DNA of 64,000 nucleotides from an uncultured Acidobacteriota bacterium (GTDB taxonomy: Bacteria; Acidobacteriota; Thermoanaerobaculia; Gp7-AA8), in NCBI GenBank assembly GCA_963741955.1, contig CAVUKB010000005.1, forward strand, positions 640,001 to 704,000. Reading direction: 5' to 3'. Made by a program: the position numbers and the translations under genes. Positions 8,297-60,467 of the stretch are shown here, piece after piece. Each line of letters starts with the position of its first letter. The first letter of the stretch is position 1. Below the pieces are notes generated by a model that did no database searches, was not told where the DNA came from, and saw nothing but the letters and a program-made list of their open reading frames with translations.

Positions 8297-8384
8297 CGCC
8301 CCTACGGGGCTCTCCGATGGTGGTTTTCCGCGATCAATCCCAGGACTGCGTCCTGGGCTATTGTCAGACGCCCCTACGGGGCTC
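8297..8384. repeat. REP-like element: two CGCCCCTACGGGGCTC hairpins around CCCAGGACTGCGTCCTGGG
   Basis: Hairpins at 8297-8312, 8339-8357 and 8369-8384. Confidence 0.7.
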
Positions 8385-24085: not shown

Positions 24086-25653
24086 TGCGCCGCGCGCCGT
24101 TCCAAATCGCGCGCCGCTCGCCGAGGAGTGCGGACTCGCAGACCGCCTCGAAGATCGTGTTCGACGCGCGGAAGACCGCGCTCGCGGCCACGCGCGGAGC
24201 GTCGGTGGTGCGATCGTCCCGATCGCACGAACGCTCCGCTTCTGCCAACGGCATCCTCTCGATCCGCGCCGAACGCGATTCGCGCGGCGGATTGAAAATC
24301 CGCACTCCATTCCACTTCGCGCGCAGCGCAACGCGCGTGAAAATCCGCATTCCACGGCGCGGCACACGTCTCCTCCGCAGCATTCTCTCCTTTCTCCTCG
24401 CCCCGCTGGCGCTCGCCGCGCTCCTCTCCTGCTCCGCACCCGCGGCGGAAACGCGGGAGACGGTCGAGTTCTGGGGGCTCGGCCGCGAAGGGGAAGTCGT
24501 CGCACAGATGATCCCGGAGTTCGAGAAACGCAATCCCGGCATCCACGTCATCGTGCAGCAGATTCCGTGGACCGCGGCACACGAGAAGTTTCTCACCGCA
24601 TGGGTGGGCGAGTCGGCCCCCGACGTCGCACAGATGGGGAACACCTGGATTCCGGAGATGGTCGCCCTCCACGCGGTCGACGATCTGACCGCATTTGCGG
24701 CCGGCTCGAAGAGCATCGACGAACGTGATTACTTCCCCGGCATCTGGGCCACGAATGTCGTCGACGGAACGTTGTACGGCGTGCCGTGGTACGTCGACAC
24801 GCGGGTCCTCTTCTACCGCAGCGACATACTCGCCAGCGTCGGCTACACCAGGCCTCCGCAGACGTGGGACGAGTGGGTCGATGCGATGACCCGGATCACG
24901 AAGGAGAAGAAGGCGAAGTTCGGAATTCTCCTCCCGACCAATGAGTGGGAGCCTCTGGTCTGTCTCGCCCTCACCGACCACTCCACCCTCCTGAACGGAG
25001 GAGGAACCGCGGGGGCGTTCGAGCAGCCTCCGTTCCGGGACGCGTTCACGTTCTACATCAGCCTCTTCCGGCGCGGCCTCGCACCGAAAGTGAACAACCT
25101 GCAGGTTGCGAATCTCTATCAGCAGTTCGCCCGGGGTGACTTCGCGATGTACATCACCGGGCCATGGAACGTCGGCGAGTTCCGCCGCCGTCTTCCTCCT
25201 TCGATGAACGGGAAGTGGGCGACCGCTCCTCTTCCGGCACGCAACGCGGCGTCGCAGACGGGCATCTCGATGGCAGGCGGCTCGAGTCTGGTTCTCTTCC
25301 GCTCGTCGCATCACACCGCGGCGGCCAGGAAGCTGATCGAGTTCCTCTCCGAGCCCGCGCAGCAGATCCGGTTTTACGAGCTGACCGGAGATCTTCCCGC
25401 CCGGCGGAGCGCCTGGCGCTCGCCTTCTCTCGCCGGCGATCCGCATTTCCCTGCGTTCCGGATTCAGCTCGAGCGCGTCGAGCCGCTGCCGAAGGTCCCG
25501 GAGTGGGAGCAGATCGCGACGCAGATCTACCAGCATGGAGAGGCGACCGTCCGCGGAGCGACGACGATCGATCAGTCGCTCGCGGACCTCGACCGGAAGA
25601 GCGGAGAGATTCTCGCGAAGCGCCGCTGGGTACTCGCGCACGAGGGACGATGA
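24085..25653 (+). CDS. Sugar ABC transporter substrate-binding lipoprotein (start uncertain: ATG 24085 or GTG 24337)
   Basis: LLSC lipobox, VQQIPWTAAHEK, PDVAQMGNTW, GVPWYVDTR; TGATG coupling at 24085; N-terminal region contains REP palindromes. Confidence 0.88.
   Translation: MRRAPFQIARRSPRSADSQTASKIVFDARKTALAATRGASVVRSSRSHERSASANGILSIRAERDSRGGLKIRTPFHFARSATRVKIRIPRRGTRLLRSILSFLLAPLALAALLSCSAPAAETRETVEFWGLGREGEVVAQMIPEFEKRNPGIHVIVQQIPWTAAHEKFLTAWVGESAPDVAQMGNTWIPEMVALHAVDDLTAFAAGSKSIDERDYFPGIWATNVVDGTLYGVPWYVDTRVLFYRSDILASVGYTRPPQTWDEWVDAMTRITKEKKAKFGILLPTNEWEPLVCLALTDHSTLLNGGGTAGAFEQPPFRDAFTFYISLFRRGLAPKVNNLQVANLYQQFARGDFAMYITGPWNVGEFRRRLPPSMNGKWATAPLPARNAASQTGISMAGGSSLVLFRSSHHTAAARKLIEFLSEPAQQIRFYELTGDLPARRSAWRSPSLAGDPHFPAFRIQLERVEPLPKVPEWEQIATQIYQHGEATVRGATTIDQSLADLDRKSGEILAKRRWVLAHEGR
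24125..24353. repeat. Nested REP-like palindromes
   Basis: GGAGTGCGGA.. (24125) and ..AATCCGCACTCC (24308) inverted pair enclosing GTGGTGCGATCGTCCCGATCGCA (24205-24227); partial extra copy to 24353. Confidence 0.75.
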
Positions 25654-33206: not shown

Positions 33207-34220
33207 CTACACCACCCGACCCACCGCCGGCACGATGATCCGCAGTTCGTCCATCAGCTGCGCGAACTGATCCGGGTAGAGCGACTGGGGACCGTCGCAG
33301 AGCGCATGCTCCGGTTCGTGGTGGACTTCGATCAGCAGACCGTCCGCCCCCGCCGCGACGCTCGCGCGGGCGAGCGGCATCACCTTGTCCCGGCGCCCCG
33401 TGGCGTGGGAGGGGTCGGCGATGATCGGGAGATGGGAGAGCTTCTGCACCACCGGGATCGCCGAGATGTCGAGCGTGTTCCGCGTATACGTCTCGAACGT
33501 CCGGATGCCCCGCTCGCAGAAGATCACCTCGTAGTTGCCGCCGTTCATGATGTACTCACTCGCCAGCAGCCACTCCTGAATGGTCGCCGACATTCCGCGC
33601 TTGAGGAGTACCGGCTTGCGGATCTCGCCGAGCGCCGCCAGGAGGTTGAAGTTCTGCATGTTGCGCGCACCGACCTGAAAGATGTCGACGTACGGCATCA
33701 TCGCTTCGATCTGCCGGATCTCCATCACCTCGGAGACGGTGGCCATCCCGAACTCGTCACCGGCGGCGCGGAGGATCTTCAGCCCGTCCACCCCCATCCC
33801 CTGGAACGAATAGGGAGAGGTGCGCGGCTTGTAGGCCCCGCCGCGAAGGATCTTCGCGCCGGAGCGCGCCACCCGTGACGCCGTCTCGAAGACCTGCCTC
33901 TCGTTCTCGATGGTGCACGGCCCGGCCATGATCACCACTTCCGGCCCGCCGATCTTCACCCCGCGAACGTCGATGATCGTCTTCTCGCGCTTGAACGTTC
34001 GGCTCGCGAGTTTGTACGGTTCACTCACCCGGACTACTTCCTGGACTCCGTGGTACAACTCGAACTCCCTCTGGTCGAGCGTCTCGACCTTTCCGACGAC
34101 GCCGAGCACCGTCTGTTCGGATCCGGTGGAACGATGTACGTCGAAACCCCGCTCGGTGAGGTCTCCGACGACTTTTTCGATCTCTGCTTCCGTTGCGCTC
34201 TTTTCCATAACAATGACCAT
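33207..34220 (-). CDS. aroF: 3-deoxy-7-phosphoheptulonate (DAHP) synthase, type I-beta
   Basis: N-terminal regulatory domain, MAGPC, RGGAYKPRTSPYSFQG, GARNMQNF, LLKRG, DPSHATG. Confidence 0.95.
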   Translation of the reverse strand: MVIVMEKSATEAEIEKVVGDLTERGFDVHRSTGSEQTVLGVVGKVETLDQREFELYHGVQEVVRVSEPYKLASRTFKREKTIIDVRGVKIGGPEVVIMAGPCTIENERQVFETASRVARSGAKILRGGAYKPRTSPYSFQGMGVDGLKILRAAGDEFGMATVSEVMEIRQIEAMMPYVDIFQVGARNMQNFNLLAALGEIRKPVLLKRGMSATIQEWLLASEYIMNGGNYEVIFCERGIRTFETYTRNTLDISAIPVVQKLSHLPIIADPSHATGRRDKVMPLARASVAAGADGLLIEVHHEPEHALCDGPQSLYPDQFAQLMDELRIIVPAVGRVV

Positions 34221-34221
34221 G

Positions 34222-34530
34222 TCACTCGTCCACTTCCCTTTCGACCCGTCTCGATTCGTCGATGATCCGCTCGAAGAGTCTCCGCATGGTGATCGGCTCG
34301 AGCGGACCCTCCGACCACTTCTCGACATTTGCGAGAACTTCCTTCTCTCGTTCGGGAACGTAGATCGGCTCCTCGATTGCGCGCTTGATCTGACCGATCT
34401 CCACTGCGTACTTCGCTCGCTGATTCAGCAGCTTCACCAGCACTTCGTCCACTTTGTCGATGGCCGTACGTAGTCTGCGCAACTCGTTGTGAGCGGCGTC
34501 CGGCTCGAGATTCCGCGCGTTCCGGTTCAT
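34222..34530 (-). CDS. Chorismate mutase (AroQ type)
   Basis: LRRLRTAIDKVDEVLVKLLNQRA...IG.IK...IYVPERE...IIDESR. Confidence 0.9.
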   Translation of the reverse strand: MNRNARNLEPDAAHNELRRLRTAIDKVDEVLVKLLNQRAKYAVEIGQIKRAIEEPIYVPEREKEVLANVEKWSEGPLEPITMRRLFERIIDESRRVEREVDE

Positions 34531-35317
34531 GGCGCCTCCCCGTTCAGAATCTCCCGAACCGCACGTCCCGCTCGCTCCGCGGCGCCGGCCACTTCTCCCT
34601 GGTCGATCGCGCGCACGATGGCGCTTCCGACCACCACCGCATCGCACAGGGGTGCGAGCGTCCGATACTGTTCGTGTGTCGAGACTCCGAAGCCCACCGC
34701 GAGCGGTTTCTTCAACGCGAGCCTCACCTCCCGGAGCCGCTGGACCAGACCCGGATCGAGCTCGCGCCGCGCCCCCGTCACGCCGTTCGTCGAAACGTAG
34801 TAGACGAAGCCGTCACTCATCTTCCCCACCAGAGCCATCCGTCTGTCCGTCGACGTGGGAGCGAGGAGGAACACCGAACCGATCCCGCACCCGTCGAGGT
34901 GCCGTTTCAGATCTCCTGCCGATTCCGGGGGAAGATCGGTCACCAGCACCGAATCGATGCCGGCGCCGGCTGCGTCGGCGGCGAACCGCTGGTACCCGTA
35001 GCGGTGGATCGGGTTGAGGTACGAAAAGAGGACGAGCGGAATCTCACTCCCGCTCCGAACGCGGCGCGCGACCCCGAGCACGTCCGCCATCGTCGTTCCA
35101 CGCTCCAGAGATCGTTGCGATGCGGCCTGAATCACCGGACCGTCCGCGATCGGGTCGGAGAAAGGAACCCCGAGCTCGATGCAGGACGCACCGCTCCGTT
35201 CCAGTTCGCGGACGATTCCGACCGTCGTCTCCGGATCGGGGTCGCCGCAGGTCACGTACGCCACCAGACCGCATTTCCCGTTTCTCTTCAGCTCGCGAAA
35301 CTGCTTCGTCACCCGGT

Positions 35318-35321
<4 letters not shown>
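34527..35321 (-). CDS. trpA: Tryptophan synthase alpha subunit
   Basis: [40 protein letters not shown]. Confidence 0.97.
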
Positions 35322-36513
<1,192 letters not shown>

Positions 36514-36517
<4 letters not shown>

Positions 36518-37188
36518 CGACTCTCCTTCGCCGCCGCGACGAAGCGACGGATCTTCTCTCGATCCTTGATCCCTGCTGCCGACTCCACTCCGGTCGAGAC
36601 GTCCACTCCGTCCGGCCGGGCGATCCGGATCGCTTCGCCGACATTGTCGGGGGTCAGCCCTCCAGCGACGAAGAACGGCCGGTCCGAGATCCCACGCACC
36701 AGCTCCCAATCGAACGTCACTCCGGTCCCTCCCCAAGTGGTGCGGCCGTCTCGGTCGCATCTCCTGTCGTCTCGAGAACCCTCGGATGCGACCGGGACGG
36801 TCGCACCACTTGCCGTGTCATACAGCAACCACTCCCCAACCATGCCATCCACTACCGGCACCCTCTCCCCCACCCGCACGGCGCGGATCACCGGCCGCTG
36901 GATCAACCGTGCGACGTCGTCGCTCTCCTCACCGTGCAACTGCACGAGGTCGAGGCCGACTCCGTCCGCCACTCTGTTGATCTCTTCCGCCGCCGTGTTC
37001 CGGAAGACTCCGACCACATGGACGGCCGCGCCGGTCAGAGCCGCGACGACCTCCGATGCGCACCTCTCCGTCACCATCCGTTTCGACCCGGTCGCAAACA
37101 CCATCCCGACCATGTCTGCACCCGCTTCGACCGCCGCGAGCGCGTCTTCGAGGCGGGTGATTCCGCAGATCTTCACCAGCGTATCCAT
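36514..37188 (-). CDS. trpF: Phosphoribosylanthranilate isomerase carrying an in-frame palindromic insertion
   Basis: [41 protein letters not shown]. Confidence 0.95.
36734..36812. repeat. REP doublet (28-bp inverted arms) inside trpF
   Basis: CAAGTGGTGCGGCCGTCTCGGTCGCATC (36734-36761) pairs with GATGCGACCGGGACGGTCGCACCACTTG (36785-36812), two G-T wobbles. Confidence 0.88.
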
Positions 37189-37994
37189 CACTCCTCCCCC
37201 GCGCCTCGATTCACGAGCCCGCGCACCGCAGCGACCCGATCGTCGTTCCGGAGAAGAGATTCTCCGACCAGAAACGCGTCGAACCCTGCATTCAGAAGAC
37301 GATCGACGTCGGCCCGAGTCCGGATCCCGCTCTCGGAGACGCGCACGACGTCCTCGGGAATCCCGCGCACCAGCCTTTCCGATGTTTCCAGATCGACGGA
37401 AAAGTCGCGAAGGTCGCGATTGTTGACTCCGATGATCTTCGCGCCGCATTCGAGTGCGACGTCGAGCTCCGTCTCGTCGTGCACCTCCACCAGCGCATCA
37501 CATCCATAGCCGGCGATGCGGGCGAGGAGCTCTCTCAGTCGAAGCGGAGTGAGAATCGCGACGATCAGCAGAAGGGCATCCGCTCCGGCCGCCACACCGA
37601 GGTCGATCTGCTGCGGTTCGACGATGAAGTCCTTCATCACCACCGGCCTTCCCGAAGCCTCCGCTGCCACGGCGATCCACGTTCTCGAGCCGCGAAAGAA
37701 CTTCGGCTCGGTGACGATGGAGATTGCCGCAGCGCCGCCTTCGCGATAACCCGTGGCGATCGCGGCGACGTCGGGATCGTGGACGATCGTTCCGGCGGAG
37801 GGAGAGGCCGCCTTGATCTCGGCGATGAGACGTGCCGCGGAGGCCTCGCGTCCGCGGGACAGCGCGTTGTGGAAGCGAAACGAGTCTCTCTCTCCCACCA
37901 CGAGCTCCGCTTCGCGGCTCAGACGCGCGAGATCGGGCGCCGGATCGAGCCCGGCCCGCGTCTCGGTGACGATTCGCGAAAGGACCGTGTTCAC
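37188..37994 (-). CDS. trpC: Indole-3-glycerol phosphate synthase
   Basis: IAEIKAASPSAG, ISIVTEPKFF.G, KDFI, LVEVH, GVNNRDL, SESGI, LVGESL. Confidence 0.96.
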   Translation of the reverse strand: MNTVLSRIVTETRAGLDPAPDLARLSREAELVVGERDSFRFHNALSRGREASAARLIAEIKAASPSAGTIVHDPDVAAIATGYREGGAAAISIVTEPKFFRGSRTWIAVAAEASGRPVVMKDFIVEPQQIDLGVAAGADALLLIVAILTPLRLRELLARIAGYGCDALVEVHDETELDVALECGAKIIGVNNRDLRDFSVDLETSERLVRGIPEDVVRVSESGIRTRADVDRLLNAGFDAFLVGESLLRNDDRVAAVRGLVNRGAGEE

Positions 37995-39019
37995 TGCGCG
38001 GCCTCCTCGAGCTCACTCGACGCGACGACGAGCGCGTCGAGACGGGATGCCGCACGACCGGAATCGATCGACTCGGCAGCGGCACGCACTCCTTCGCGAA
38101 TGCCGGAGACGAGACCGGCCACGTAAAGCGCCGCGCCTGCGTTCGCGAGAACGATCTCGCGTGCCGCCCCTTGCGCGCCGTCCAGGACTTCCCTCGCGAT
38201 GCGGGCGTTGGTCGTCGCGTCGCCGCCGCGAAGCTGCTCGATCGGATGGGGGATCACTCCCATCTCCTGTGGAGTCAGCTCGTATTCGATGATCGCCCCC
38301 CCCCGCAACTCCGCCACTCGCGTGCGGCCGGAGATGGAGATCTCGTCGAGTCCTTCCTCGCTGTGGACGACCATCGCGTGCTCCGCCCCGAGCGTACGCA
38401 GTACGGAAGCGAGGATCGGAACCAGCTCCGGAGCAAAGACACCGATCACCTGGCGGCGCGCCCGTGCGGGGTTGGTCAGCGGCCCCAGTACGTTGAAGAT
38501 CGTCCGCACGCCGAGTTCACGCCGGACCGGCGCCATCGCCGCCATCGCGGGATGGAGCTTCGGGGCGAACAGAAACGAGATCCCGGTCCGCTCGAGAACG
38601 GACGTCATCTGTTCGGCATCGAGGTTGATGTTCACTCCGAGAGCGGTGAGTACGTCCGCACTTCCGCAGGACGACGAGACCGCGCGATTTCCGTGCTTCG
38701 CGACGCGCGCTCCCGCCCCCGCCGCGACGAATGCGGCAACCGTGGAGATGTTGAACGTTCCCGCGCCGTCTCCGCCGGTCCCGCACGTGTCGATCAACCC
38801 ATCCGCCTCGACCCGGAGCGAGATCACTCTCTCGCGCATTGCGGTCGCCGCTCCCGCAATCTCGTCCGGCGTCTCTCCCTTCATCTTCAACGCCACGAGG
38901 AGTGCGCTCTTCTGGACATCCGAGACTTCTCCGTCCATCACTTCCGAGAAGACGCCCTGCATCTCGTCGAGCGAGAGGTGGCTCCCCGACATCACCTTGC
39001 GTATCGATCCTCCGATCAT
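37991..39019 (-). CDS. trpD: Anthranilate phosphoribosyltransferase
   Basis: DTCGTGGDG..TFNIST, KHGNRAVSSSCGSAD, RTIFNVLGPLTNP. Confidence 0.97.
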   Translation of the reverse strand: MIGGSIRKVMSGSHLSLDEMQGVFSEVMDGEVSDVQKSALLVALKMKGETPDEIAGAATAMRERVISLRVEADGLIDTCGTGGDGAGTFNISTVAAFVAAGAGARVAKHGNRAVSSSCGSADVLTALGVNINLDAEQMTSVLERTGISFLFAPKLHPAMAAMAPVRRELGVRTIFNVLGPLTNPARARRQVIGVFAPELVPILASVLRTLGAEHAMVVHSEEGLDEISISGRTRVAELRGGAIIEYELTPQEMGVIPHPIEQLRGGDATTNARIAREVLDGAQGAAREIVLANAGAALYVAGLVSGIREGVRAAAESIDSGRAASRLDALVVASSELEEAAQ

Positions 39020-39591
39020 GAGAGACCTCCGATGCGGCAGAAATTCGCGATGAGACGGTCCCCCTCCGTCGTGCCGTAGGACTCGGGGTGAAACTGGATT
39101 CCGAAGATCGGACGTGTACGGTGCGACACCGCCATCACGCATCCGTCGTCGGTGGCTGCGTCGACCTCCAGGCCGGCCGGAAGGGTCGCAGCATCGGCGA
39201 CGAGGGAGTGGTAGCGCGTGGCCCGGAAGGGATTGGTGCAGCCGTCGAACAGCCGCCGCCCCTGATGACGGATCGAATCCACTTTCCCGTGCACCGGCTC
39301 CGGCGCGCGAACGATCTCCGCGCCGAACGCTTCCGCGATCGCCTGATGCCCGAGGCAGACGCCGAGGAGCGGCGTGCCGTCGAGATGGCGGACGAGATCG
39401 ACGATCTTCCCCGCATGCGACGGCGTTCCCGGCCCGGGAGAGATCACGATCGCGTCGGGATTCGATGCGAGGAGCGCGTCGATCTCGAACTCGTCGTTTC
39501 TCACCACCTCGACGCGACGCCCGGAGACGACTTCGATCTGCTGCACCAGGTTCCAGGTGAACGAGTCGTAGTTGTCGATCATGGCGATCAT
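39016..39591 (-). CDS. trpG: Anthranilate synthase component II
   Basis: IDNYDSFT, ISPGPG, GVCLGHQ, RYHSL, QFHPES. Confidence 0.95.
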   Translation of the reverse strand: MIAMIDNYDSFTWNLVQQIEVVSGRRVEVVRNDEFEIDALLASNPDAIVISPGPGTPSHAGKIVDLVRHLDGTPLLGVCLGHQAIAEAFGAEIVRAPEPVHGKVDSIRHQGRRLFDGCTNPFRATRYHSLVADAATLPAGLEVDAATDDGCVMAVSHRTRPIFGIQFHPESYGTTEGDRLIANFCRIGGLS

Positions 39592-41105
39592 CGCGCCACC
39601 TCCTGGAGTGCTTTCTCGCCGCTCCGGCGTCTCTCGGCGACCGCGGCTGCGACGCCGATCGCGCGACGCAGCGCGGCCGACTTGTTCACCGTCTCGACGT
39701 GCTCCCGCTCCGGATCGGAGTCGTAGACGATTCCCGCGCCTGCCTGCACGTACGCCTTCCCTCCGCTCATCACCACGGTGCGGATCGCAATGCAGGAGTC
39801 GAGATTTCCGGAGAAGCCGATGTAGCCGACCGCGCCGGCGTACGGTCCGCGACGCACCGGTTCGAGGCCGTCGATCAGCTCCATCGCGCGGATCTTCGGC
39901 GCACCGCTGACCGTTCCGGCAGGGAACGCGGCGAGGAAGCAGTCGATCGGCGTCCGGTCGTTCCGGAGTCTCCCCCGAACGACGCTCACCAGATGCATCA
40001 CGTGGCTGTAACGCTCGATCGCGCGGAACTGCGTCACTTCGACCGAACCGCTCTCGCAGACCCGCCCGAGATCGTTCCGTCCGAGATCCACCAGCATCAG
40101 GTGCTCGGCATTTTCCTTGGCGTCGGCGAGGAGCTCGGCCGCGAGCCGCGCGTCCTCTTCCTCCGTCGCTCCGCGCGGCCGCGTGCCGGCGATCGGACGC
40201 GTCTCGGCGAGCCGACCGTCGACGCGCACCAGCATCTCCGGCGACGAGCCGACCAGCGAGAGCTCACCGGTGCGGAAGAGGAACATGTACGGAGACGGGT
40301 TGATCCCCCGCAATGCGCGATAGAGGGTCAGGTCTTCCGATTGAGGAAGATCGCACTCCCATCGCTGCGAGAGAACGATCTGGAAGACCTCGCCCGCGGC
40401 GATGGCTTCCTTTGCACGCACTACCGCCTCCTGGAACTCTCCCGCCGCATGCGTGGAGCGGACCGCGACCGGCTCGCCGACGTCGCCGGAGACGAAGAGG
40501 TCCACCCGCGCGTCGTGCAGCCTTTCCACGATCGCGTCGAGCCGCGCATTCGCCCGCTCCAGGAGCACCGCACCCGGCTCCGGCGCGTCACTGAAGATGT
40601 TCGCGACGACGTAGAGCTGCTGCCGTACTTGATCGAATGCGAGCACCTGATCGAAAAAGAGAAGCGTCGCGTCGGGAAGCCCGAGGTCGTCCGTGCGCGT
40701 GTCGGGGATGCGCTCGCTCCATCCGGCGATCCCGTAGCCGAAGAACCCCACCGCACCGCCGAAGAAAGGCGGGAGCGCCTCTTCGTTCCAGACCCGCAGC
40801 GGCACGAGCTCTTCGCGAAGCGTCGCGACCGGACTCTTCGTGTCGGGTCCGAACGAGAGCGTCTTCCGCGGCGCGACGCCGATGAACGAATACCGCCCCA
40901 TGCTCTCGCCCCGCTCCACGCTCTCCAGAAGGAACGCTTCAGGCGCGAGCGACGAGAGCGCGGCGAACGCCGCCACAGGGGTGATGGTGTCCGCCCCGAG
41001 CAGCCGCACCACCGGGATGACGTCGTACTCCCGCCGCAGCGCATCGACCCGTTCCGGGGTCAGTGCTCCGTTTTTCGGGTACACCTCTCCTCTGCTCGTT
41101 TTCAT
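39588..41105 (-). CDS. trpE: Anthranilate synthase component I
   Basis: FLLESVE, NPSPYM, GSSPE, PIAGTRPRG, EHLMLVDLGRND, PAGTVSGAPK, QAGAGIV. Confidence 0.96.
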   Translation of the reverse strand: MKTSRGEVYPKNGALTPERVDALRREYDVIPVVRLLGADTITPVAAFAALSSLAPEAFLLESVERGESMGRYSFIGVAPRKTLSFGPDTKSPVATLREELVPLRVWNEEALPPFFGGAVGFFGYGIAGWSERIPDTRTDDLGLPDATLLFFDQVLAFDQVRQQLYVVANIFSDAPEPGAVLLERANARLDAIVERLHDARVDLFVSGDVGEPVAVRSTHAAGEFQEAVVRAKEAIAAGEVFQIVLSQRWECDLPQSEDLTLYRALRGINPSPYMFLFRTGELSLVGSSPEMLVRVDGRLAETRPIAGTRPRGATEEEDARLAAELLADAKENAEHLMLVDLGRNDLGRVCESGSVEVTQFRAIERYSHVMHLVSVVRGRLRNDRTPIDCFLAAFPAGTVSGAPKIRAMELIDGLEPVRRGPYAGAVGYIGFSGNLDSCIAIRTVVMSGGKAYVQAGAGIVYDSDPEREHVETVNKSAALRRAIGVAAAVAERRRSGEKALQEVAR

Positions 41106-41173
41106 CGATTCATCCCCAGACTTCCCCGGCCGCTAAATTCGAGGTCCGATATTCGAGATCCGAAATCTCTCCG

Positions 41174-42451
41174 TCATTCCTCCAGAAACTGCTCCACCGT
41201 CAATTCCCGTTGTTCCCCCGTCTTCAGATCCTTCACCGTGACCGTCCCCTTCGCCACTTCATCCGCTCCGACGATCACTGCAGACGTGGCCCCCGAATTC
41301 GCCGCCGCTCTCAACGCTTTCCCCACTGCCGGCTCGCCATACGGAGAGACCACCGACTTTCCTCCGCGCCGAAGCCGAGCGACGATCGAGAGCGTCGCGG
41401 CGCGATTCCCTCCCCCGCCGGTGATGGCGAAGACGTCGACCCGCTTCGATTGCGTCGCGGCGAGGCCACGATCCTTCAGCAGTTCGCCGAGCACCACGTC
41501 GCCGAAGCCGAACCCGAGGGCCGGGACGTCGATGGCGGCGAGCGAGGAGAAGAGGCGATCGTAACGGCCGCCGCCGCAGATCGCACGGAGCTCGCCCTTC
41601 CGGTCGAAGATCTCGAAGACGATTCCGGTGTAGTACGCGAGACCGCGGACGATCTTCATGTCGAACTGGATCCAGTCGCCGAAGCCGAGTGCTCCGAGTG
41701 CTTCCTCGTACTGCCGAAGATCTTCGAGCACCTGCTCGAACTCCGGATGTCCGGCGTAGCGCGAGGTGATCTCTTCGAGCGAAAGGCTGGTCAGACCGAG
41801 CGCGTTTTCCGCGGCTTCCGGCGACAATCCGATCTCACGAAGTCTCTGGACGCAGACCTCGCGCGGATCGCGCTCGACCTTGTCGATCACGTTGTACGCC
41901 GTCGGGAGGTTCTCTTCCGACACGCCGAGGTCCGTGAGAGCGGCGTGGAGGAGCCGACGGTCGGAGTAGCGCGCCACGACGTCGTCCGCGGTGAGCCCGA
42001 GGGTCCGGAGGACGTCGAGCGCTGCGGCGACGAGATCGGCGTCGGCGAGGACCGACTCCTCCCCGATGATGTCCATGTTCAGCTGGAAATGCTCGCGGAG
42101 ACGGCCGCGCTGCTGTTTCTCGTAGCGGAAGAGCTGCGGCATGGAGAACCAGCGGACCGGACGCGGCAGCCCCTTGATGCGCGCGCCGAGCATCCGTACC
42201 AGCGTCGGCGTCATCTCGGGACGGAGCGCGACCTCGCGCCCTCCCTTGTCGGTGAAGTTGAAGAGCTGGTTGACGATCTCCGGGCCGGACTTCTCGATGT
42301 AGAGCTCGAGCGCTTCGAGCGGCGGGCCGTCGTACTCCTCGAACCCGTATCGCCGCGCGACGTCCTTCCATGCTCCGAAGATCTGATTCCGCCGGGCCAT
42401 CTCTTCCGGATAGAAATCGCGGAATCCCGGCAGTGCTGCATGCTTCGCCAT
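41174..42451 (-). CDS. hisS: Histidine--tRNA ligase
   Basis: LPGFRDFYP, ALRPEMTP, FRYEKQQRGRLREHFQ, VRGLAYYTG, GGGRYD, C-terminal anticodon domain; ATG overlaps aroDE TAA. Confidence 0.95.
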   Translation of the reverse strand: MAKHAALPGFRDFYPEEMARRNQIFGAWKDVARRYGFEEYDGPPLEALELYIEKSGPEIVNQLFNFTDKGGREVALRPEMTPTLVRMLGARIKGLPRPVRWFSMPQLFRYEKQQRGRLREHFQLNMDIIGEESVLADADLVAAALDVLRTLGLTADDVVARYSDRRLLHAALTDLGVSEENLPTAYNVIDKVERDPREVCVQRLREIGLSPEAAENALGLTSLSLEEITSRYAGHPEFEQVLEDLRQYEEALGALGFGDWIQFDMKIVRGLAYYTGIVFEIFDRKGELRAICGGGRYDRLFSSLAAIDVPALGFGFGDVVLGELLKDRGLAATQSKRVDVFAITGGGGNRAATLSIVARLRRGGKSVVSPYGEPAVGKALRAAANSGATSAVIVGADEVAKGTVTVKDLKTGEQRELTVEQFLEE

Positions 42452-43962
42452 TACGACTCCTTCTTCACGGTCGCGACCGCGTCGCGCCGCAGAACTGAAG
42501 TGAACAGATCGAACTGTCGGAGAGCCTGGGCTCTCAGGAAATCCATCCCGTCGAACGTCTTCGCTCCCGCGGCGTGCGCGGCGTCGAGCGCCGGCCGCGG
42601 CGTGGTGCCGTATGCGACGTCGACGTAAAGGACGCCGCGTCTCAGAAGGGAACGTGGGATCTCGACGCCGGCGGACGCCGGAAGCGTGTTGATCACCACG
42701 TCCGCATCCGCTGCCCGCAGCACGTCGAGCGAGGCGGAGCGGATTCCGAACTCCGACGCGAGCGATGCGGCTCGCGACGCAGTCCGGTTGTACAGAGTCG
42801 CCTCGAGGCCGTGTCGCCGGATCGCGACGAGCGCCGCGCGTGCGGTGCCGCCGGCTCCGATCACCGTCACCCGCGTGCCGTGCACCATCGCGAGTGCAGT
42901 GTTGAACCCGTCGACGTCGGTGTTCATCGCGACGACGGAGATCGTGCCCTCCTCGTTGCGTTTCCGCAGGAGCGTGTTCACGGCGCGGCACGCGAGAGCG
43001 TTCTCGCCGATCGTCGCGCGCGCGCCGAGGGAGCGCGCGAACTCGAACGCCCGCTCCTTGTAGGGTGCGGTGATGCTCACCCCGTCGGGCGTGTACGGCG
43101 CGCCGGAGAGCATGGCCCGTTCGATCTCGCCGAAGTCTTCCACTTCCGCGACGGTGTACGCCGCCGCCAGCTTCCTCTGCTGGAGCCGCGGGTTGTGGAT
43201 CGACGGCGAGAGGCTGTGCGCCGCAGGAAGTCCGGTCACCGCGAAGATCGCGTCGGGGCGCGGAAGCGCGGCGAGCTCGGGACCGAAGATCGCAGCCGCG
43301 CGCTCGAGCGTCAGTTGGCCCGGCGCGGCGAGGGATGCGTCGTCCGCGGCGAGATACGTCAGCTCCGATCCGTAGAACGGCGCGAGAATCCGACTGTAGA
43401 GGCCTTTCGATCCCATCCCGAAGATGGTGGTTCCGCGCGGCGCGTCGTCGATCGCTTCGAGGAGGCGGATGTTGTCGTCCAGTGTGCGAGGAGTCGCGAC
43501 GAGCTTGATCCGTTCCGCGCCGGTGCGGCGCATCTCGGCGAGGAGCGTGTCGAGATCGGGAACGCCATCGAAGTCGTGAAACGAGAGAATGAGCCGCGGA
43601 GCGAGAGTCAATAGGCGATCACGATCCGCGTGGGAGCCGAATTCGAGATCGGCGAGATCGAAGCCCGCCTCGAGCGCCCGCTCGAGCTCCCCGATCTCAC
43701 TCCCTCCCATCCCCGCGGGTGATCTCCTCGTCGCGATGAGAAGGCGCGAGGTCGCGTTGCGAAGGGCGGCGAAATCGGGGAGGGCGCCGTTCGCGAACCG
43801 GTCGAGACGGATCTCGAATCCGTCCGCGCGGGCTTCGAGCTCGCCGATCCGTGCAATCGCCAGATCGACGGTCGGCTCGACGATCGAGACGATGCGGCGC
43901 GGCCGGACGTCGACCGGCGACGTCGCGGAAGGTCTCGAGCTCTGCGGATTGATCTCGTTCAA
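42451..43962 (-). CDS. Bifunctional type I 3-dehydroquinate dehydratase / shikimate dehydrogenase (AroD-AroE fusion; start uncertain)
   Basis: EIRLD, ILSFHDF, IKLV, MG..G..SR, APGQ (AroD); HSLSP.IHN, SITAPYKE, AVNT, NTDVDG, IGAGGTARA (AroE). Confidence 0.9.
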   Translation of the reverse strand: MNEINPQSSRPSATSPVDVRPRRIVSIVEPTVDLAIARIGELEARADGFEIRLDRFANGALPDFAALRNATSRLLIATRRSPAGMGGSEIGELERALEAGFDLADLEFGSHADRDRLLTLAPRLILSFHDFDGVPDLDTLLAEMRRTGAERIKLVATPRTLDDNIRLLEAIDDAPRGTTIFGMGSKGLYSRILAPFYGSELTYLAADDASLAAPGQLTLERAAAIFGPELAALPRPDAIFAVTGLPAAHSLSPSIHNPRLQQRKLAAAYTVAEVEDFGEIERAMLSGAPYTPDGVSITAPYKERAFEFARSLGARATIGENALACRAVNTLLRKRNEEGTISVVAMNTDVDGFNTALAMVHGTRVTVIGAGGTARAALVAIRRHGLEATLYNRTASRAASLASEFGIRSASLDVLRAADADVVINTLPASAGVEIPRSLLRRGVLYVDVAYGTTPRPALDAAHAAGAKTFDGMDFLRAQALRQFDLFTSVLRRDAVATVKKES

Positions 43963-44164: not shown

Positions 44165-44435
44165 GCACCGCGTCGCGGACTCCGTCAGCCAACGCCGCAA
44201 TGGACCTACACGGCGCCGCCCCGCCACCAATCGACCGGAGATCTCTCCATTGCGCCATTGCCAACTCAGCACAACCCACGTCCCCGGCAGAAGCGGAGCG
44301 GGATCGCAAGACCCACCGACGCTCCGCGCACATCCACAACTCCCTCTTCATCGCGTACAACACCATCCACGCGGCAAATCCCGCCGAGCGGGATCCGCAC
44401 TCCTCGGCCGCAGCCGGGCCGCTATACTCGAACGG

Positions 44436-57702: not shown

Positions 57703-59580
57703 TCAGAAGTCGAGGTTCTCCGTGATCCGCGTACCGTCCTTCGCGAACGCTTCGCGGTACTTCCGGATCCGCTTGCGGGCCACGCCGAGGTCGTGGTTGT
57801 CGAGATTGAGGTTGAGGAGATCGATGTACCAGGGGATCTTCACCGGACTGGTGACGATCGCCTCGACGATCGCGCGTGCGATCGGGAGCGTGGTTCCCTT
57901 CGAGTCGTCATGGACGTCGCGGTTGCTCGCGGTGAGGAGCTTCGCGGTCTCTTCTTCGATCAGACGCGAGAAGAGATCTTCCGTCAGTGCATCGCCCGCG
58001 CGGACGCCGGTCTCCGGATCATTCTCGGTGAACCGCGCATCTTTGTGCAGCCACTCCCAGAGGATGCTCGCACGGATCTCACCGGTGGCCATGTCCTCCA
58101 TCAGGTAGAGAACGTCTTCGTTGCCGAAGAAGTCGGCGGGCTTGAGTGCTGCAGCCTGGAATCCGCGTCCGAACGCATTGCCGTACTGGAGCGCGACGCT
58201 GAGGAGATCCCGCGCGCCACGCACCGTGCGCGGCGCCGGCTCGAGGAGGGTCAGGTCTTCCGCGTCATCCTCGGTGTAGGTCAGAGGCGGGAACTCGCGT
58301 CCCATCTGGTTCTCCTCCCCTACCTTCTCCCATACCGGGCGGACGATGTGCACCATCTTCCAGTGCGCCACCCACTTGCCGCTCGCCCCCTCGCGCTGCT
58401 CGCGCTCCGCCCCGGCGACCGCTTTCTTCATCCCCGCCTCGACGCCTCCCTTCGACCCGACCGGGATATTCGGTTCCATCCCTCCCTGCCAGAGCGCGAA
58501 ACGGCCGTTCCGGTCGGGCGTGTTCATCGCCCGCCGCACCCGGTCTTCGTAGATCCGCATGTAGCCGTACGTCATTCCGATCGCGTCGATGTTCGGATTC
58601 ACGAATGACGGATCCCACCACATCGCGTCGGCGACACTGTTGATGTAGTCCCAGCGACCGGTGTTGAACCCGACGAAGTGTCTACCGAAAGCCGCACGGA
58701 TCTCCATCAGCTGGAACGTCGCCTCGATCTGTTCGACCAGGACGTAGACCTTGATCGTGCCCGCCGGGAGCTTCAGATGCTCCTCGAGCTTCGACAGGAT
58801 GTCATTCCAGAGCGCCGCTTCTTCCGCGGTCTGGATCTTCGGCAGGTAGAGCACGATCGAACGCCCCTGGGATCTCAGCGGGCGGTAGTTGTTCACCACG
58901 TAGAGAACGGTGTCGACGATCGAGGCGGAGAATCCCGTGCCGTCCGCCTCCCGGATGTGACGGTCGTCGAGATGGAGCCCGCGTGCCCGGAAGATCCGGG
59001 TGGTGAAATCGAGCTGTTCTCTCCAGTCCGCGATGATGTCGTGGCCGAAGAACCCCTGCGCCCACCGGTTCATCTCCCCCGCGATCTTCTCGGCGACGGC
59101 GAGGAACTTCGCGTCCTTCGCGAGCGCGAGCTTCAGGTTCCGCTGGTTGTCGAGCGACATGGTGTCCACCTGACCCAGCGCGTCCTCCCCGTCGAACATC
59201 CATCCGTCCGCACCGGAGAGGAGCGCATACGCCACGTTCCTCAACCCGTCCTCGGTGGTCGATCGCGGACGCGTCGCCGGCCCGGTTCCCTGAATCCACT
59301 GCCGCTGCAGGTCGGGAGGTATCTCGCTTCCTTCGAAGTTGCCTTCGCGCGCGTCACGAACCTTGATGCCGGTGCGGGGTATGGTCGAGTCAGGATCGAG
59401 AAACCCGATCCGCTTCTTCGATCGCGCACGTTCCTGGCGTCGCGCGATCCGCTCGTTCATGATGCGCCGCCGTTCACGATTCAGAGGCACGAGAAGCTCC
59501 ATCGCGTCGACCGCCTCAGCGGTCAGGATGTCGGGGTAGGCTTCGGTCAGACGATCTCGAATCTCGAGCTTTCGCGGCAT
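57703..59580 (-). CDS. Malate synthase
   Basis: DGED, RARGLHL, LYLPK...EEA.LWN, VLVE, GFNTGRWDYI, GGM, G.WVAH, LMEDMATGEI. Confidence 0.9.
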   Translation of the reverse strand: MPRKLEIRDRLTEAYPDILTAEAVDAMELLVPLNRERRRIMNERIARRQERARSKKRIGFLDPDSTIPRTGIKVRDAREGNFEGSEIPPDLQRQWIQGTGPATRPRSTTEDGLRNVAYALLSGADGWMFDGEDALGQVDTMSLDNQRNLKLALAKDAKFLAVAEKIAGEMNRWAQGFFGHDIIADWREQLDFTTRIFRARGLHLDDRHIREADGTGFSASIVDTVLYVVNNYRPLRSQGRSIVLYLPKIQTAEEAALWNDILSKLEEHLKLPAGTIKVYVLVEQIEATFQLMEIRAAFGRHFVGFNTGRWDYINSVADAMWWDPSFVNPNIDAIGMTYGYMRIYEDRVRRAMNTPDRNGRFALWQGGMEPNIPVGSKGGVEAGMKKAVAGAEREQREGASGKWVAHWKMVHIVRPVWEKVGEENQMGREFPPLTYTEDDAEDLTLLEPAPRTVRGARDLLSVALQYGNAFGRGFQAAALKPADFFGNEDVLYLMEDMATGEIRASILWEWLHKDARFTENDPETGVRAGDALTEDLFSRLIEEETAKLLTASNRDVHDDSKGTTLPIARAIVEAIVTSPVKIPWYIDLLNLNLDNHDLGVARKRIRKYREAFAKDGTRITENLDF

Positions 59581-59808: not shown

Positions 59809-59913
59809 GGAGTGCGGATTTGTAATCCGCCGCGCAGATCGCGTTCGGAGCGGATCGTCACGGTGCCTGCCGCAAGAGGGAAAAAGTCCGTGCGGCCGGG
59901 ACGGTCGCACCAC
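59809..59913. repeat. REP cluster: GGAGTGCGGATTTGTAATCCGCC element plus an inverted GTGGTGCGACCGTCCCGGCCGCA
   Basis: 59809-59857 matches the reverse complement of 24260-24308; 59891-59913 matches the trpF REP. Confidence 0.78.
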
Positions 59914-59954: not shown

Positions 59955-60467
59955 ATGAAACGTGCGTTCGTCGCCGTCCGCGCCGTCGTCTACGCGTCCC
60001 TTTTCGTCTCCCTCTGGGTCTGGATCGCGATCCGCCTGCGGAGCCTCGATCCTTACCTCGTCCTGCGTCTCCCGTCGTGGGTGAGACCCATCGGTGGAGT
60101 CCTGGCACTCTGCGGACTCGCCATCGGCGTCGGATGTATCTACGCCTTCATCGCCTACGGACACGGCACGCCTGCGCCGTTCGATCCGCCTCGAGAGTTC
60201 GTCGCGGTCGGACCGTACCGTCTCGTCCGCAACCCGATGTACGTCGGAGGATTCGTGCTGATCCTCGGCGCGGGACTTTTCGTCCTCTCGCCCGCGATCG
60301 TCGCGCTGGCGTTCGTTCTCCTCGCCGTCACGCACGTGATGGTGGTGCTGGTCGAAGAGCCGGATCTGCAGCGCCGGTTCGGCGAGAGCTATCAGCGGTA
60401 TCGCGCATCGGTGAGGCGGTGGCTCCCCGCACCGCCGCGAAGCACGAGCGGCTCCGCTCTCGACTGA
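59955..60467 (+). CDS. Isoprenylcysteine carboxyl methyltransferase / PEMT family membrane protein
   Basis: G.GTPAP.DPP, GPYR.VRNPMY.G, EE..L..RFG..Y..Y...V.RW. Confidence 0.9.
   Translation: MKRAFVAVRAVVYASLFVSLWVWIAIRLRSLDPYLVLRLPSWVRPIGGVLALCGLAIGVGCIYAFIAYGHGTPAPFDPPREFVAVGPYRLVRNPMYVGGFVLILGAGLFVLSPAIVALAFVLLAVTHVMVVLVEEPDLQRRFGESYQRYRASVRRWLPAPPRSTSGSALD

What the first reader, a model, noticed from the sequence alone, without database searches (positions are those of the whole stretch)
36734..36812. REP doublet inserted in frame within trpF and translated as a protein loop
TrpF normally has a short loop between LLD and GGTG; here it reads [36 protein letters not shown]. The extra DNA is a 79-bp hairpin with 28-bp arms, each arm a GTGG-type REP (GTGGTGCGRCCGTCYCGGTCGCA). 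The same REP occurs at 59891-59913 (intergenic) and 24205-24227. This parallels Rickettsia palindromic elements in coding regions, but in a biosynthetic enzyme loop near the active site. The hairpin lies about 220 nt upstream of trpB and could also shape processing or stability of the operon mRNA (inference).
Basis: partly seen in the sequence, partly recalled or inferred. Interest (0 to 1): 0.78.

Follow-up and report, generated by a model that had tools for sequence, protein, structure and literature searches.

The report
Palindromic repeat translated inside trpF
A small mobile palindromic DNA repeat has landed in frame inside the tryptophan-pathway gene trpF of an uncultured acidobacterium and adds about 21-27 disordered residues to a catalytic loop; in-frame repeat insertions of this kind are already documented in other bacteria.

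Summary
Window 36734-36812 is a 79-nt palindrome with 28-nt arms, 93% complementary. Each arm carries a 23-nt GTGG-headed REP unit. The unit has two more copies in the window, against 0 expected by chance. It lies in frame in trpF (36514-37188, minus strand) at codons 126-152. In 119 of 121 TrpFs, 2-10 residues separate the catalytic Asp from the GG[ST]G motif. This protein and one 99%-identical partial protein from another record have 28.

The REP is a real repeat family. A genome scan found at least 118 loci, almost all in Thermoanaerobaculia/Sulfomarinibacteraceae MAGs. Of 121 copies, 94 are inverted doublets, and 164 of 169 units are intergenic.

The rest of TrpF looks intact: a full-length PRAI match, the catalytic Cys and Asp, and a confident barrel model in which only the insert is disordered. 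The insert sits in mobile catalytic loop 6.

The best reading is a REPIN-like doublet inserted and translated as a tolerated loop. Intragenic REP dimers encoding 20-30 residues are already published (PMC3733652), so this is a new member of a known kind. No RAYT transposase was found. Any RNA-level role is untested.

The parts
36514..37188 (-). trpF (phosphoribosylanthranilate isomerase), 224 codons plus stop. The ATG at 37188 overlaps the trpC stop (TGATG). The trpF stop overlaps the trpB start (ATGA).
   Evidence: ORF listing and translation. Pfam PRAI PF00697: 161.7 bits against a cutoff of 22.7, covering profile positions 1-192 of 193. T. maritima TrpF 1lbm matches at E 1.3e-34. The AF2 model has mean pLDDT 88.3, and its Foldseek top hits are TrpF structures 1nsj, 1v5x and 1lbm.
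36734..36812 (.). 79-nt palindromic element (REP doublet, REPIN-like) lying in frame in trpF codons 126-152. It has no stop codon in any of its six frames.
36737..36759 (+). REP unit A: GTGG head plus an 8-nt stem and 3-nt loop (one G-T position in the stem).
36787..36809 (-). REP unit B, inverted relative to unit A, with a perfect 8-bp stem.
36762..36784 (.). Spacer between the 28-nt arms, which forms the loop of the long hairpin. The single amino-acid difference from the second record (Asp to Ala) falls here.
24205..24227 (+). Single REP copy whose stem carries a compensated change (GAT/ATC). It lies between the glucoamylase-like gene (ends 24085) and the Pfam-supported part of the solute-binding protein gene, at the centre of a 184-bp inverted-repeat element (24125-24308).
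59891..59913 (-). Single intergenic REP copy between the malate synthase gene (starts at 59580) and a PEMT-family gene (starts at 59955).
35318..36517 (-). trpB, the next gene downstream, translationally coupled to trpF.
37188..37994 (-). trpC, the next gene upstream.

Best explanation
A REP doublet (REPIN-like element) of a repeat family specific to Thermoanaerobaculia has inserted into the trpF coding sequence. The site is mobile catalytic loop 6 (the beta6-alpha6 loop), directly after the catalytic Asp. The element is open in all six frames and the net gain is a multiple of three. The ribosome therefore reads through it and TrpF gains a loop that is 18-26 residues longer than in its relatives. 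The model shows this loop as disordered, projecting from an otherwise normal (beta-alpha)8 barrel. The enzyme most likely still works, because loop 6 is flexible and tolerant of sequence change.

Shown here: the palindrome, its repeat family, the in-frame position, its absence from orthologues, and the intact remainder of the gene and operon.

Inferred: that the element arrived by transposition (mechanism unknown, RAYT-type assumed by analogy), that the protein is made with the insert, and that it is active.
For: Element and family
- The palindrome and the REP copies are far beyond chance.
- 94 of 121 distinct copies are inverted doublets. Spacer classes are 2-5 nt (56 copies) and 20-24 nt (32 copies). 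Their architecture aligns with the window element.
- The stems differ between subfamilies but stay complementary: GGC/GCC, GGG/CCC (31), AGG/CCT (25), and GAC/GTC and GAT/ATC in the window.
- Elsewhere the family is extragenic. 164 of 169 units in 76 loci are intergenic. In 8 of the 9 REP-spanning ORFs with Pfam hits, all domains lie downstream of the REP.

Insertion into trpF
- 119 of 121 TrpFs have 2-10 residues (mode 7) where this protein has 28.
- The same insert occurs in a second public record that is 176/177 identical. The only change lies in the spacer.

Intact gene and operon
- PRAI matches over its full length.
- The Cys column is invariant and the Asp column nearly invariant, and both are present here.
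- The AF2 model has pLDDT 88.3 and pTM 0.85. Only model residues 131-155 fall below 50.
- TrpF structures are the top fold matches.
- trpE-G-D-C-F-B-A are all intact and joined by 1-4-nt overlaps.

Site tolerance
- The insert maps to T. maritima residues about 127-131, inside loop 6 (residues 128-139) (PMC9088769, passages read).
- The same paper states that TrpF tolerates grafted loop-6 sequences without losing activity.
Against: - No activity, transcript or peptide data exist for this gene.
- The site is next to the general-acid Asp, in a loop that gates the active site (PMC9088769). Loss or reduction of activity is therefore plausible.
- An in-frame outcome is expected by chance in about 1 of 3 insertions, because the element has no stops in any frame. 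An open frame alone is weak evidence of selection.
- The palindrome is 79 nt, not a multiple of 3, and no empty site was found. The insertion event cannot be reconstructed.
- The two records are 99% identical, so retention of the insert over evolutionary time is not shown.
- No RAYT/Y1 transposase was found among 46 window proteins or 200 predicted proteins flanking REPs in relatives.
- The source genome itself was not available for a whole-genome count.
Confidence: 0.7

Rival explanations
1. The insertion has inactivated or crippled TrpF. The open frame is luck (about 1 chance in 3), and the cell obtains PRA isomerase activity or tryptophan elsewhere. On this reading trpF is a young in-frame pseudogene.
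For: The insert follows the catalytic Asp directly and sits in gating loop 6. The element has no stop codon in any frame. The two records with the insert are 99% identical, so the event may be recent. The arms are still 93% complementary.
Against: There is no other lesion in trpF. PRAI matches over its full length and the catalytic residues are present. All neighbouring trp genes are intact and translationally coupled. TrpF is reported to tolerate loop-6 replacement (PMC9088769). The window holds no second trpF or PriA-like gene, though the rest of the genome was not seen.
Confidence: 0.17
2. The element is kept for what it does as nucleic acid. The -59 kcal/mol hairpin inside the polycistronic trp mRNA would act as a processing, stability or ribosome-pausing site that sets the ratio of trpEGDCF to trpBA expression. 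The added peptide would be a by-product. This can hold together with the best explanation.
For: The hairpin is very stable. It lies 217 nt upstream of trpB in a tightly coupled operon. REPs in other bacteria are reported as mostly transcribed and proposed to act as RNA (PMC3733652). REP protection of upstream mRNA in E. coli is recalled, not read here.
Against: The hairpin is not followed by a T-run, and no terminator-like site was found. Rfam has no match there. Translating ribosomes would melt a hairpin inside a coding sequence. On the mRNA strand the two imperfect positions are A-C mismatches, whereas they would be G-U pairs on the antisense strand (read). No expression data are available.
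Confidence: 0.1
3. The palindrome is an assembly artefact, or it is skipped by the ribosome (translational bypass) so that the mature protein lacks it.
For: Palindromes can arise as assembly chimeras. GC-rich mobile inserts that ribosomes bypass are known from yeast mitochondria and phage T4 gene 60 (recalled, not read here).
Against: The insert lies in the middle of a contig of at least 64 kb. It recurs, with one substitution, in an independently deposited record. The frame is open, so bypass is unnecessary, and the codons at the two ends of the hairpin do not match.
Confidence: 0.03

Closest known systems
Intragenic GTAG/CGTC-tagged REPs (Di Nocera et al. 2013, PMC3733652; passages read, Additional file 3 searched)
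   Same: Short palindromic units with a 5' GT[A/G]G-type head. A GTGG variant is reported for Opitutus terrae GTAG-20. They are mostly intergenic and often occur as inverted dimers. A minority lie wholly inside ORFs, where dimers encode 20-30 residues.
   Different: This is a different REP sequence in a different phylum (Acidobacteriota, class Thermoanaerobaculia). The target is a biosynthetic enzyme's catalytic loop. The published list stresses DNA replication and repair genes and has no entry matching 'anthranilate' or 'tryptophan'.
REPIN/RAYT systems: REP doublets mobilised by REP-associated tyrosine transposases (recalled; also described in PMC3733652)
   Same: The unit of repetition is two inverted REPs separated by a short spacer. 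94 of 121 copies in relatives are such doublets. The stems covary between subfamilies.
   Different: No RAYT gene was found in the window (0 of 46 proteins) or next to REPs in relatives (0 of 200 predicted proteins). Mobilisation by a RAYT is therefore an assumption here.
Rickettsia palindromic elements (RPEs; PMC10969869 and PMC3733652, passages read)
   Same: Palindromic repeats inserted in frame in genes that are thought to stay functional, adding a surface peptide.
   Different: RPEs are about 150 bp and are reported from Rickettsia, where in-frame insertion is frequent (44 insertions into genes of R. conorii). Here the element is 79 nt, the family is overwhelmingly intergenic, and trpF is the only clear coding insertion seen.
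Engineered loop-6 variants of TrpF (as cited in PMC9088769)
   Same: Loop 6 of TrpF is altered and activity is retained.
   Different: Those were laboratory grafts of loops from related barrels. This is a natural insert of selfish-DNA origin that makes the loop about four times longer.

Membership tests
REP (repetitive extragenic palindrome) | Unit of 20-40 nt with a conserved 5' GT[A/G]G-type head followed by an imperfect palindrome | tested here: met
   The unit is 23 nt: a GTGG head plus an 8-nt stem and 3-nt loop. Four units in the window fit the core palindrome pattern against 0.18 expected. The definition comes from PMC3733652.
REP (repetitive extragenic palindrome) | Many dispersed copies, predominantly intergenic | tested here: met
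   Related MAGs hold at least 118 loci and 121 distinct copies. 164 of 169 units are intergenic. For the source genome only the 64-kb window was seen. It holds 4 units, 2 of them outside trpF.
REP (repetitive extragenic palindrome) | Stem maintained by compensatory changes | tested here: met
   Five complementary stem variants occur across subfamilies. Of 158 head-anchored units outside the search seed, 74 have at least 7 of 8 Watson-Crick pairs. The other 84 have 6 or fewer and are probably chance matches to the 7-nt head.
REPIN (REP doublet forming a hairpin) | Two REPs in inverted orientation with a short spacer, repeated as a unit | tested here: met
   The window doublet has 28-nt arms. 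94 of 121 copies in relatives are doublets, and their architectures align. In relatives the two arms have different stems, whereas in trpF both arms are of one type.
REPIN/RAYT system | A cognate RAYT (Y1 transposase, Pfam Y1_Tnp) gene flanked by the same REPs | tested here: inconclusive
   None was found among 46 window proteins or among 200 predicted proteins within 1.5 kb of REPs in relatives.
MITE | Terminal inverted repeats plus a target-site duplication | tested here: inconclusive
   Inverted termini are present. GG lies on both sides of the palindrome, and removing one GG with the element would keep the frame. Without an empty site this cannot be told apart from chance.
Rickettsia palindromic elements | Membership of one of the described RPE sequence families | not tested
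   No RPE sequence was compared. Size (79 nt against about 150 bp) and host differ. The RPEs are treated as an analogue only.
TrpF / PRAI (PF00697) | Full-length PRAI domain, catalytic Cys and Asp, (beta-alpha)8 fold | tested here: met
   PRAI scores 161.7 bits over profile positions 1-192 of 193. Cys is invariant and Asp nearly invariant in alignment A1, and both are present. The AF2 barrel and Foldseek matches to 1nsj, 1v5x and 1lbm reach E of 1e-19 or better.
TrpF / PRAI (PF00697) | PRA isomerase activity | not testable with these tools
   This needs complementation or an enzyme assay.

The most novel reading that the evidence does not exclude
The doublet has been co-opted rather than merely tolerated. 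One version is that the hairpin acts inside the operon as an RNA element that decouples trpBA from trpEGDCF expression. The other is that the long flexible lid changes loop-6 gating of TrpF, affecting substrate protection, product release or partner contact. Either would make this a natural case of selfish DNA remodelling a catalytic loop.
Probability: 0.1. Interest if true: 0.6.

Novelty: new member of a known kind. Interest (0 to 1): 0.4.

Why it matters
The finding adds a clear, well-delimited case of a REP doublet translated inside a housekeeping enzyme. It comes from a phylum (Acidobacteriota) whose repeat families are little described. The position is unusual: the mobile catalytic loop next to the general-acid residue of a model (beta-alpha)8 enzyme.

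If the enzyme is active, it is a natural experiment on how much a TIM-barrel catalytic loop can be lengthened. It would also show how selfish palindromes supply raw loop material to proteins. The principle itself, in-frame REP/RPE insertions, is already established, so the finding is illustrative rather than surprising.

Tried and rejected
- Second in-frame copy. I looked for one in 76 related loci. Of the 5 units that fell in predicted CDSs, 2 lie in a weak 87-codon prediction with no Pfam hit (L019) and 1 sits 1 nt from a predicted start (L044). Both are probably gene-calling errors. The other 2 form a doublet inside a PAS/sigma-54 activator of a Planctomycetaceae MAG (L031). All 40 homologues examined have a linker of similar length at that place. 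It is therefore not a simple insertion and I do not count it as a second case.
- ORFs with coding-like composition. ORFs spanning REPs in L003, L035 and L043 had coding-like GC-position patterns but no Pfam hit. My gene model did not call them.
- R/Y covariation in the seed pattern. This was uninformative, since 115 of 121 copies carry the same G-C combination. The head-anchored count replaced it.
- Window against loci. BLAST at E 1e-10 found nothing, so the source genome is not among the fetched loci.
- Insert peptide in the protein collection. A 40-residue query against longer proteins gave 33 candidates, and only the known partial TrpF scored. The tool itself calls this weak evidence.
- RAYT. 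None was found.
- RNA and signal scans. Rfam, promoter and terminator scans found nothing at the element.
- Literature. The search for 'phosphoribosylanthranilate isomerase' with Asp126 and loop gave 0 papers.
- Not checked. An empty-site relative and further copies there were not looked for.

Full report
**1. What is in the sequence**

The window is 64% G+C. It carries an aromatic amino-acid gene block on the minus strand: aroD/E-like, hisS, trpE, trpG, trpD, trpC, trpF, trpB, trpA, chorismate mutase and DAHP synthase. All have full Pfam matches. The genes from trpE to chorismate mutase are joined by 1-4-nt overlaps.

trpF runs from 37188 down to 36514. Its ATG overlaps the trpC stop, and its stop overlaps the trpB ATG at 36517.

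Inside trpF, the repeat finder reports an inverted repeat with arms 36734-36761 and 36785-36812. The arms are 28 nt and 93% complementary, with 23 nt between them. As RNA of the coding strand, the region folds at -59.2 kcal/mol, z = -5.5, and 0 of 200 shuffles fold as well.

Each arm contains a 23-nt unit: GTGG followed by an 8-nt stem and a 3-nt loop. The matches are 36737 (+), 36787 (-), 59891 (-) and 24205 (+). The core palindrome pattern finds the same four places against 0.18 expected.

The palindrome occupies codons 126-152, counted from the ATG. It has no stop codon in any of its six frames.

**2. It is an insertion**

The homologue search scored 8000 candidates, of which 7430 had E of 0.001 or better, and listed the best 120. 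I aligned these 120 with the window protein.

- The stretch between the catalytic Asp and the GG[ST]G motif is 2-10 residues in 119 of 121 sequences. The mode is 7, seen in 88 sequences.
- It is 28 residues only in the window protein and in P0002 (also the 36-row alignment A1).
- P0002 is a partial TrpF named 'Thermoanaerobaculia bacterium' by its source. It is 176/177 identical to the window protein. The one change (Asp to Ala) lies in the spacer of the palindrome.
- The next relatives are about 50% identical, so no empty site was available.
- The net gain over relatives is 18-26 residues.

The palindrome is 79 nt and therefore cannot be the whole in-frame gain. GG flanks it on both sides. 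Removing the element with one GG would join Thr125 directly to Gly153 in frame. This is only one possible history.

**3. The repeat family**

One scan of 185,579 species-representative genomes with a degenerate 23-nt pattern found at least 118 loci. Of the 80 loci whose titles were shown, nearly all are from Thermoanaerobaculia or Candidatus Sulfomarinibacteraceae MAGs. A few come from records labelled Planctomycetaceae, Paludisphaera or Deltaproteobacteria.

- The loci hold 121 distinct copies.
- 94 of these have an inverted partner within 70 nt. Spacers fall into two classes, 2-5 nt (56 copies) and 20-24 nt (32 copies).
- The usual element has short complementary termini, a left REP, a spacer, and a right REP with a different stem. 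Its architecture aligns with the trpF element, whose cores are 27 nt apart.
- Stems vary between subfamilies yet remain complementary. A count anchored only on the 7-nt head found 158 units outside the seed copies. Of these, 74 have at least 7 of 8 Watson-Crick pairs. The types are GGG/CCC (31), AGG/CCT (25), and GAC/GTC and GAT/ATC in the window. The remaining 84 have 6 or fewer pairs and are probably chance heads.

To see where copies lie, I trained a codon log-likelihood gene caller on the window. It recovers the trp operon. Most of its predictions in the loci have Pfam hits.

- Of 169 REP units in the 76 loci of 1500 nt or more that were kept (four overlapping duplicate loci were dropped), 164 are intergenic.
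- Of 48 stop-to-stop ORFs that span a REP, 9 have Pfam hits. In 8 of those 9, every domain lies downstream of the REP.

The family therefore behaves as a classical extragenic repeat, and the trpF copy is an exception.

**4. State of the gene and protein**

- PRAI matches from profile position 1 to 192 of 193, at 161.7 bits.
- The catalytic Cys column is invariant and the Asp column nearly invariant in A1. Both residues are present here.
- AlphaFold2 with A1 gives mean pLDDT 88.3 and pTM 0.85. The only segment below 50 is model residues 131-155, which is the insert.
- The best PDB fold matches are TrpF structures 1nsj, 1v5x and 1lbm, with E from 1e-20 to 7e-19.
- A sequence search of the PDB aligns the protein to T. 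maritima TrpF in two pieces that break at the insert. The residues after the insert (TWGGTG) align to T. maritima 131-136.

Romero-Rivera et al. 2022 (PMC9088769, passages read) make four relevant points:
- They define T. maritima loop 6 as residues 128-139.
- They call it one of the two catalytic loops of TrpF and say it carries the catalytic Asp.
- They find it flexible in simulations.
- They state that TrpF tolerates grafted loop-6 sequences without loss of activity.

The insert is thus in a functionally sensitive loop that is nonetheless reported to tolerate sequence replacement.

**5. How it most likely works**

I think a REPIN-like doublet transposed into trpF and is translated as a disordered extension of loop 6 on an enzyme that still works (confidence about 0.7).

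- Shown: the element, its family, the in-frame position, its absence from orthologues, and the intact gene and operon.
- Inferred: the transposition mechanism, translation of the insert, and enzyme activity.

The main rival is in-frame inactivation (about 0.17). An open frame is expected in one insertion out of three, because the element has no stops in any frame. The two records carrying it are nearly identical, so long retention is not demonstrated.

An added or alternative role of the hairpin in operon mRNA (about 0.1) has no support beyond its stability and position. There is no terminator-like site and no Rfam match there.

An assembly artefact or ribosomal bypass is unlikely (about 0.03). 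The insert recurs in a second deposited record and the frame is open.

**6. Comparison with what is known**

Di Nocera et al. 2013 (PMC3733652; passages read, supplement searched) describe GTAG- and CGTC-tagged REPs, including a GTGG-headed variant.
- They report that REPs are mostly intergenic and often dimeric.
- In several species some lie entirely inside ORFs. More than half of those inserts are dimers or groups that encode 20-30 residues.
- Their list has no trpF, 'anthranilate' or 'tryptophan' entry.

Rickettsia palindromic elements are the classic in-frame case (PMC10969869). They are longer and reported from Rickettsia.

REPIN/RAYT biology is recalled and also described in PMC3733652. 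It fits the doublet organisation, but the defining transposase was not found: 0 of 46 window proteins and 0 of 200 flanking proteins. Whole genomes could not be scanned.

I therefore file the element as a REP doublet by structure and distribution, with RAYT association untested. The overall finding is a new member of a known kind.

**7. Verdict**

Interest is moderate (0.4). It is a tidy natural example of selfish palindromic DNA lengthening a catalytic loop of a model TIM-barrel enzyme, in a poorly studied phylum. The phenomenon itself is already in print.

Noticed in passing
window 24125-24308; also 59809-59913, 24342-24353 and 44392-44403: A 184-bp element with 44-nt terminal inverted repeats (75% complementary, head GGAGTGCGGAYT) carries the single REP 24205-24227 at its centre. 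The same head lies about 80 nt from the REP at 59891. Two further heads occur elsewhere. In all there are 6 head matches against 0.96 expected. This looks like a second, larger palindromic repeat family that incorporates the REP.
   Followed up: partly
L031 1495-1551 (Planctomycetaceae MAG, 2.6-Mb contig): A tight 51-nt doublet of the same REP family lies in frame in the linker between the PAS and sigma-54-interaction domains of an NtrC-type regulator. All 40 homologues examined have a linker of similar length there, so there is no net insertion. How the REP sequence came to occupy the linker is unexplained.
   Followed up: partly
L031, L034, L012, L035: The same 23-nt REP pattern, with doublet partners, occurs in records labelled Planctomycetaceae, Paludisphaera and Deltaproteobacteria as well as in Thermoanaerobaculia. 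This means either spread of the repeat across phyla or mislabelled or misbinned contigs.
   Followed up: no
35 loci, for example L010 1440-1620: A longer composite repeat surrounds the doublet: conserved sequence on both sides of it, running for about 130 nt in all. Among the member loci whose titles were shown, it comes mostly from one Sulfomarinibacteraceae MAG. No transposase was seen beside L010.
   Followed up: partly
window 8339-8383 (+): Acido-Lenti-1 RNA (RF01687) at 47.1 bits against a gathering score of 37. It is the only Rfam match in the window and is consistent with an acidobacterial source.
   Followed up: no
window 33207-43962 (-): An aromatic amino-acid supra-operon runs aroD/E fusion, hisS, trpEGDCFBA, chorismate mutase and DAHP synthase. 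Every junction from trpE to chorismate mutase is a 1-4-nt overlap.
   Followed up: partly
L003 1501-1523 and L013 1501-1523: In two MAGs the REP sits between a BMC shell gene and EutN/CcmL genes of a microcompartment operon. That places it in an intergenic gap inside an operon.
   Followed up: no
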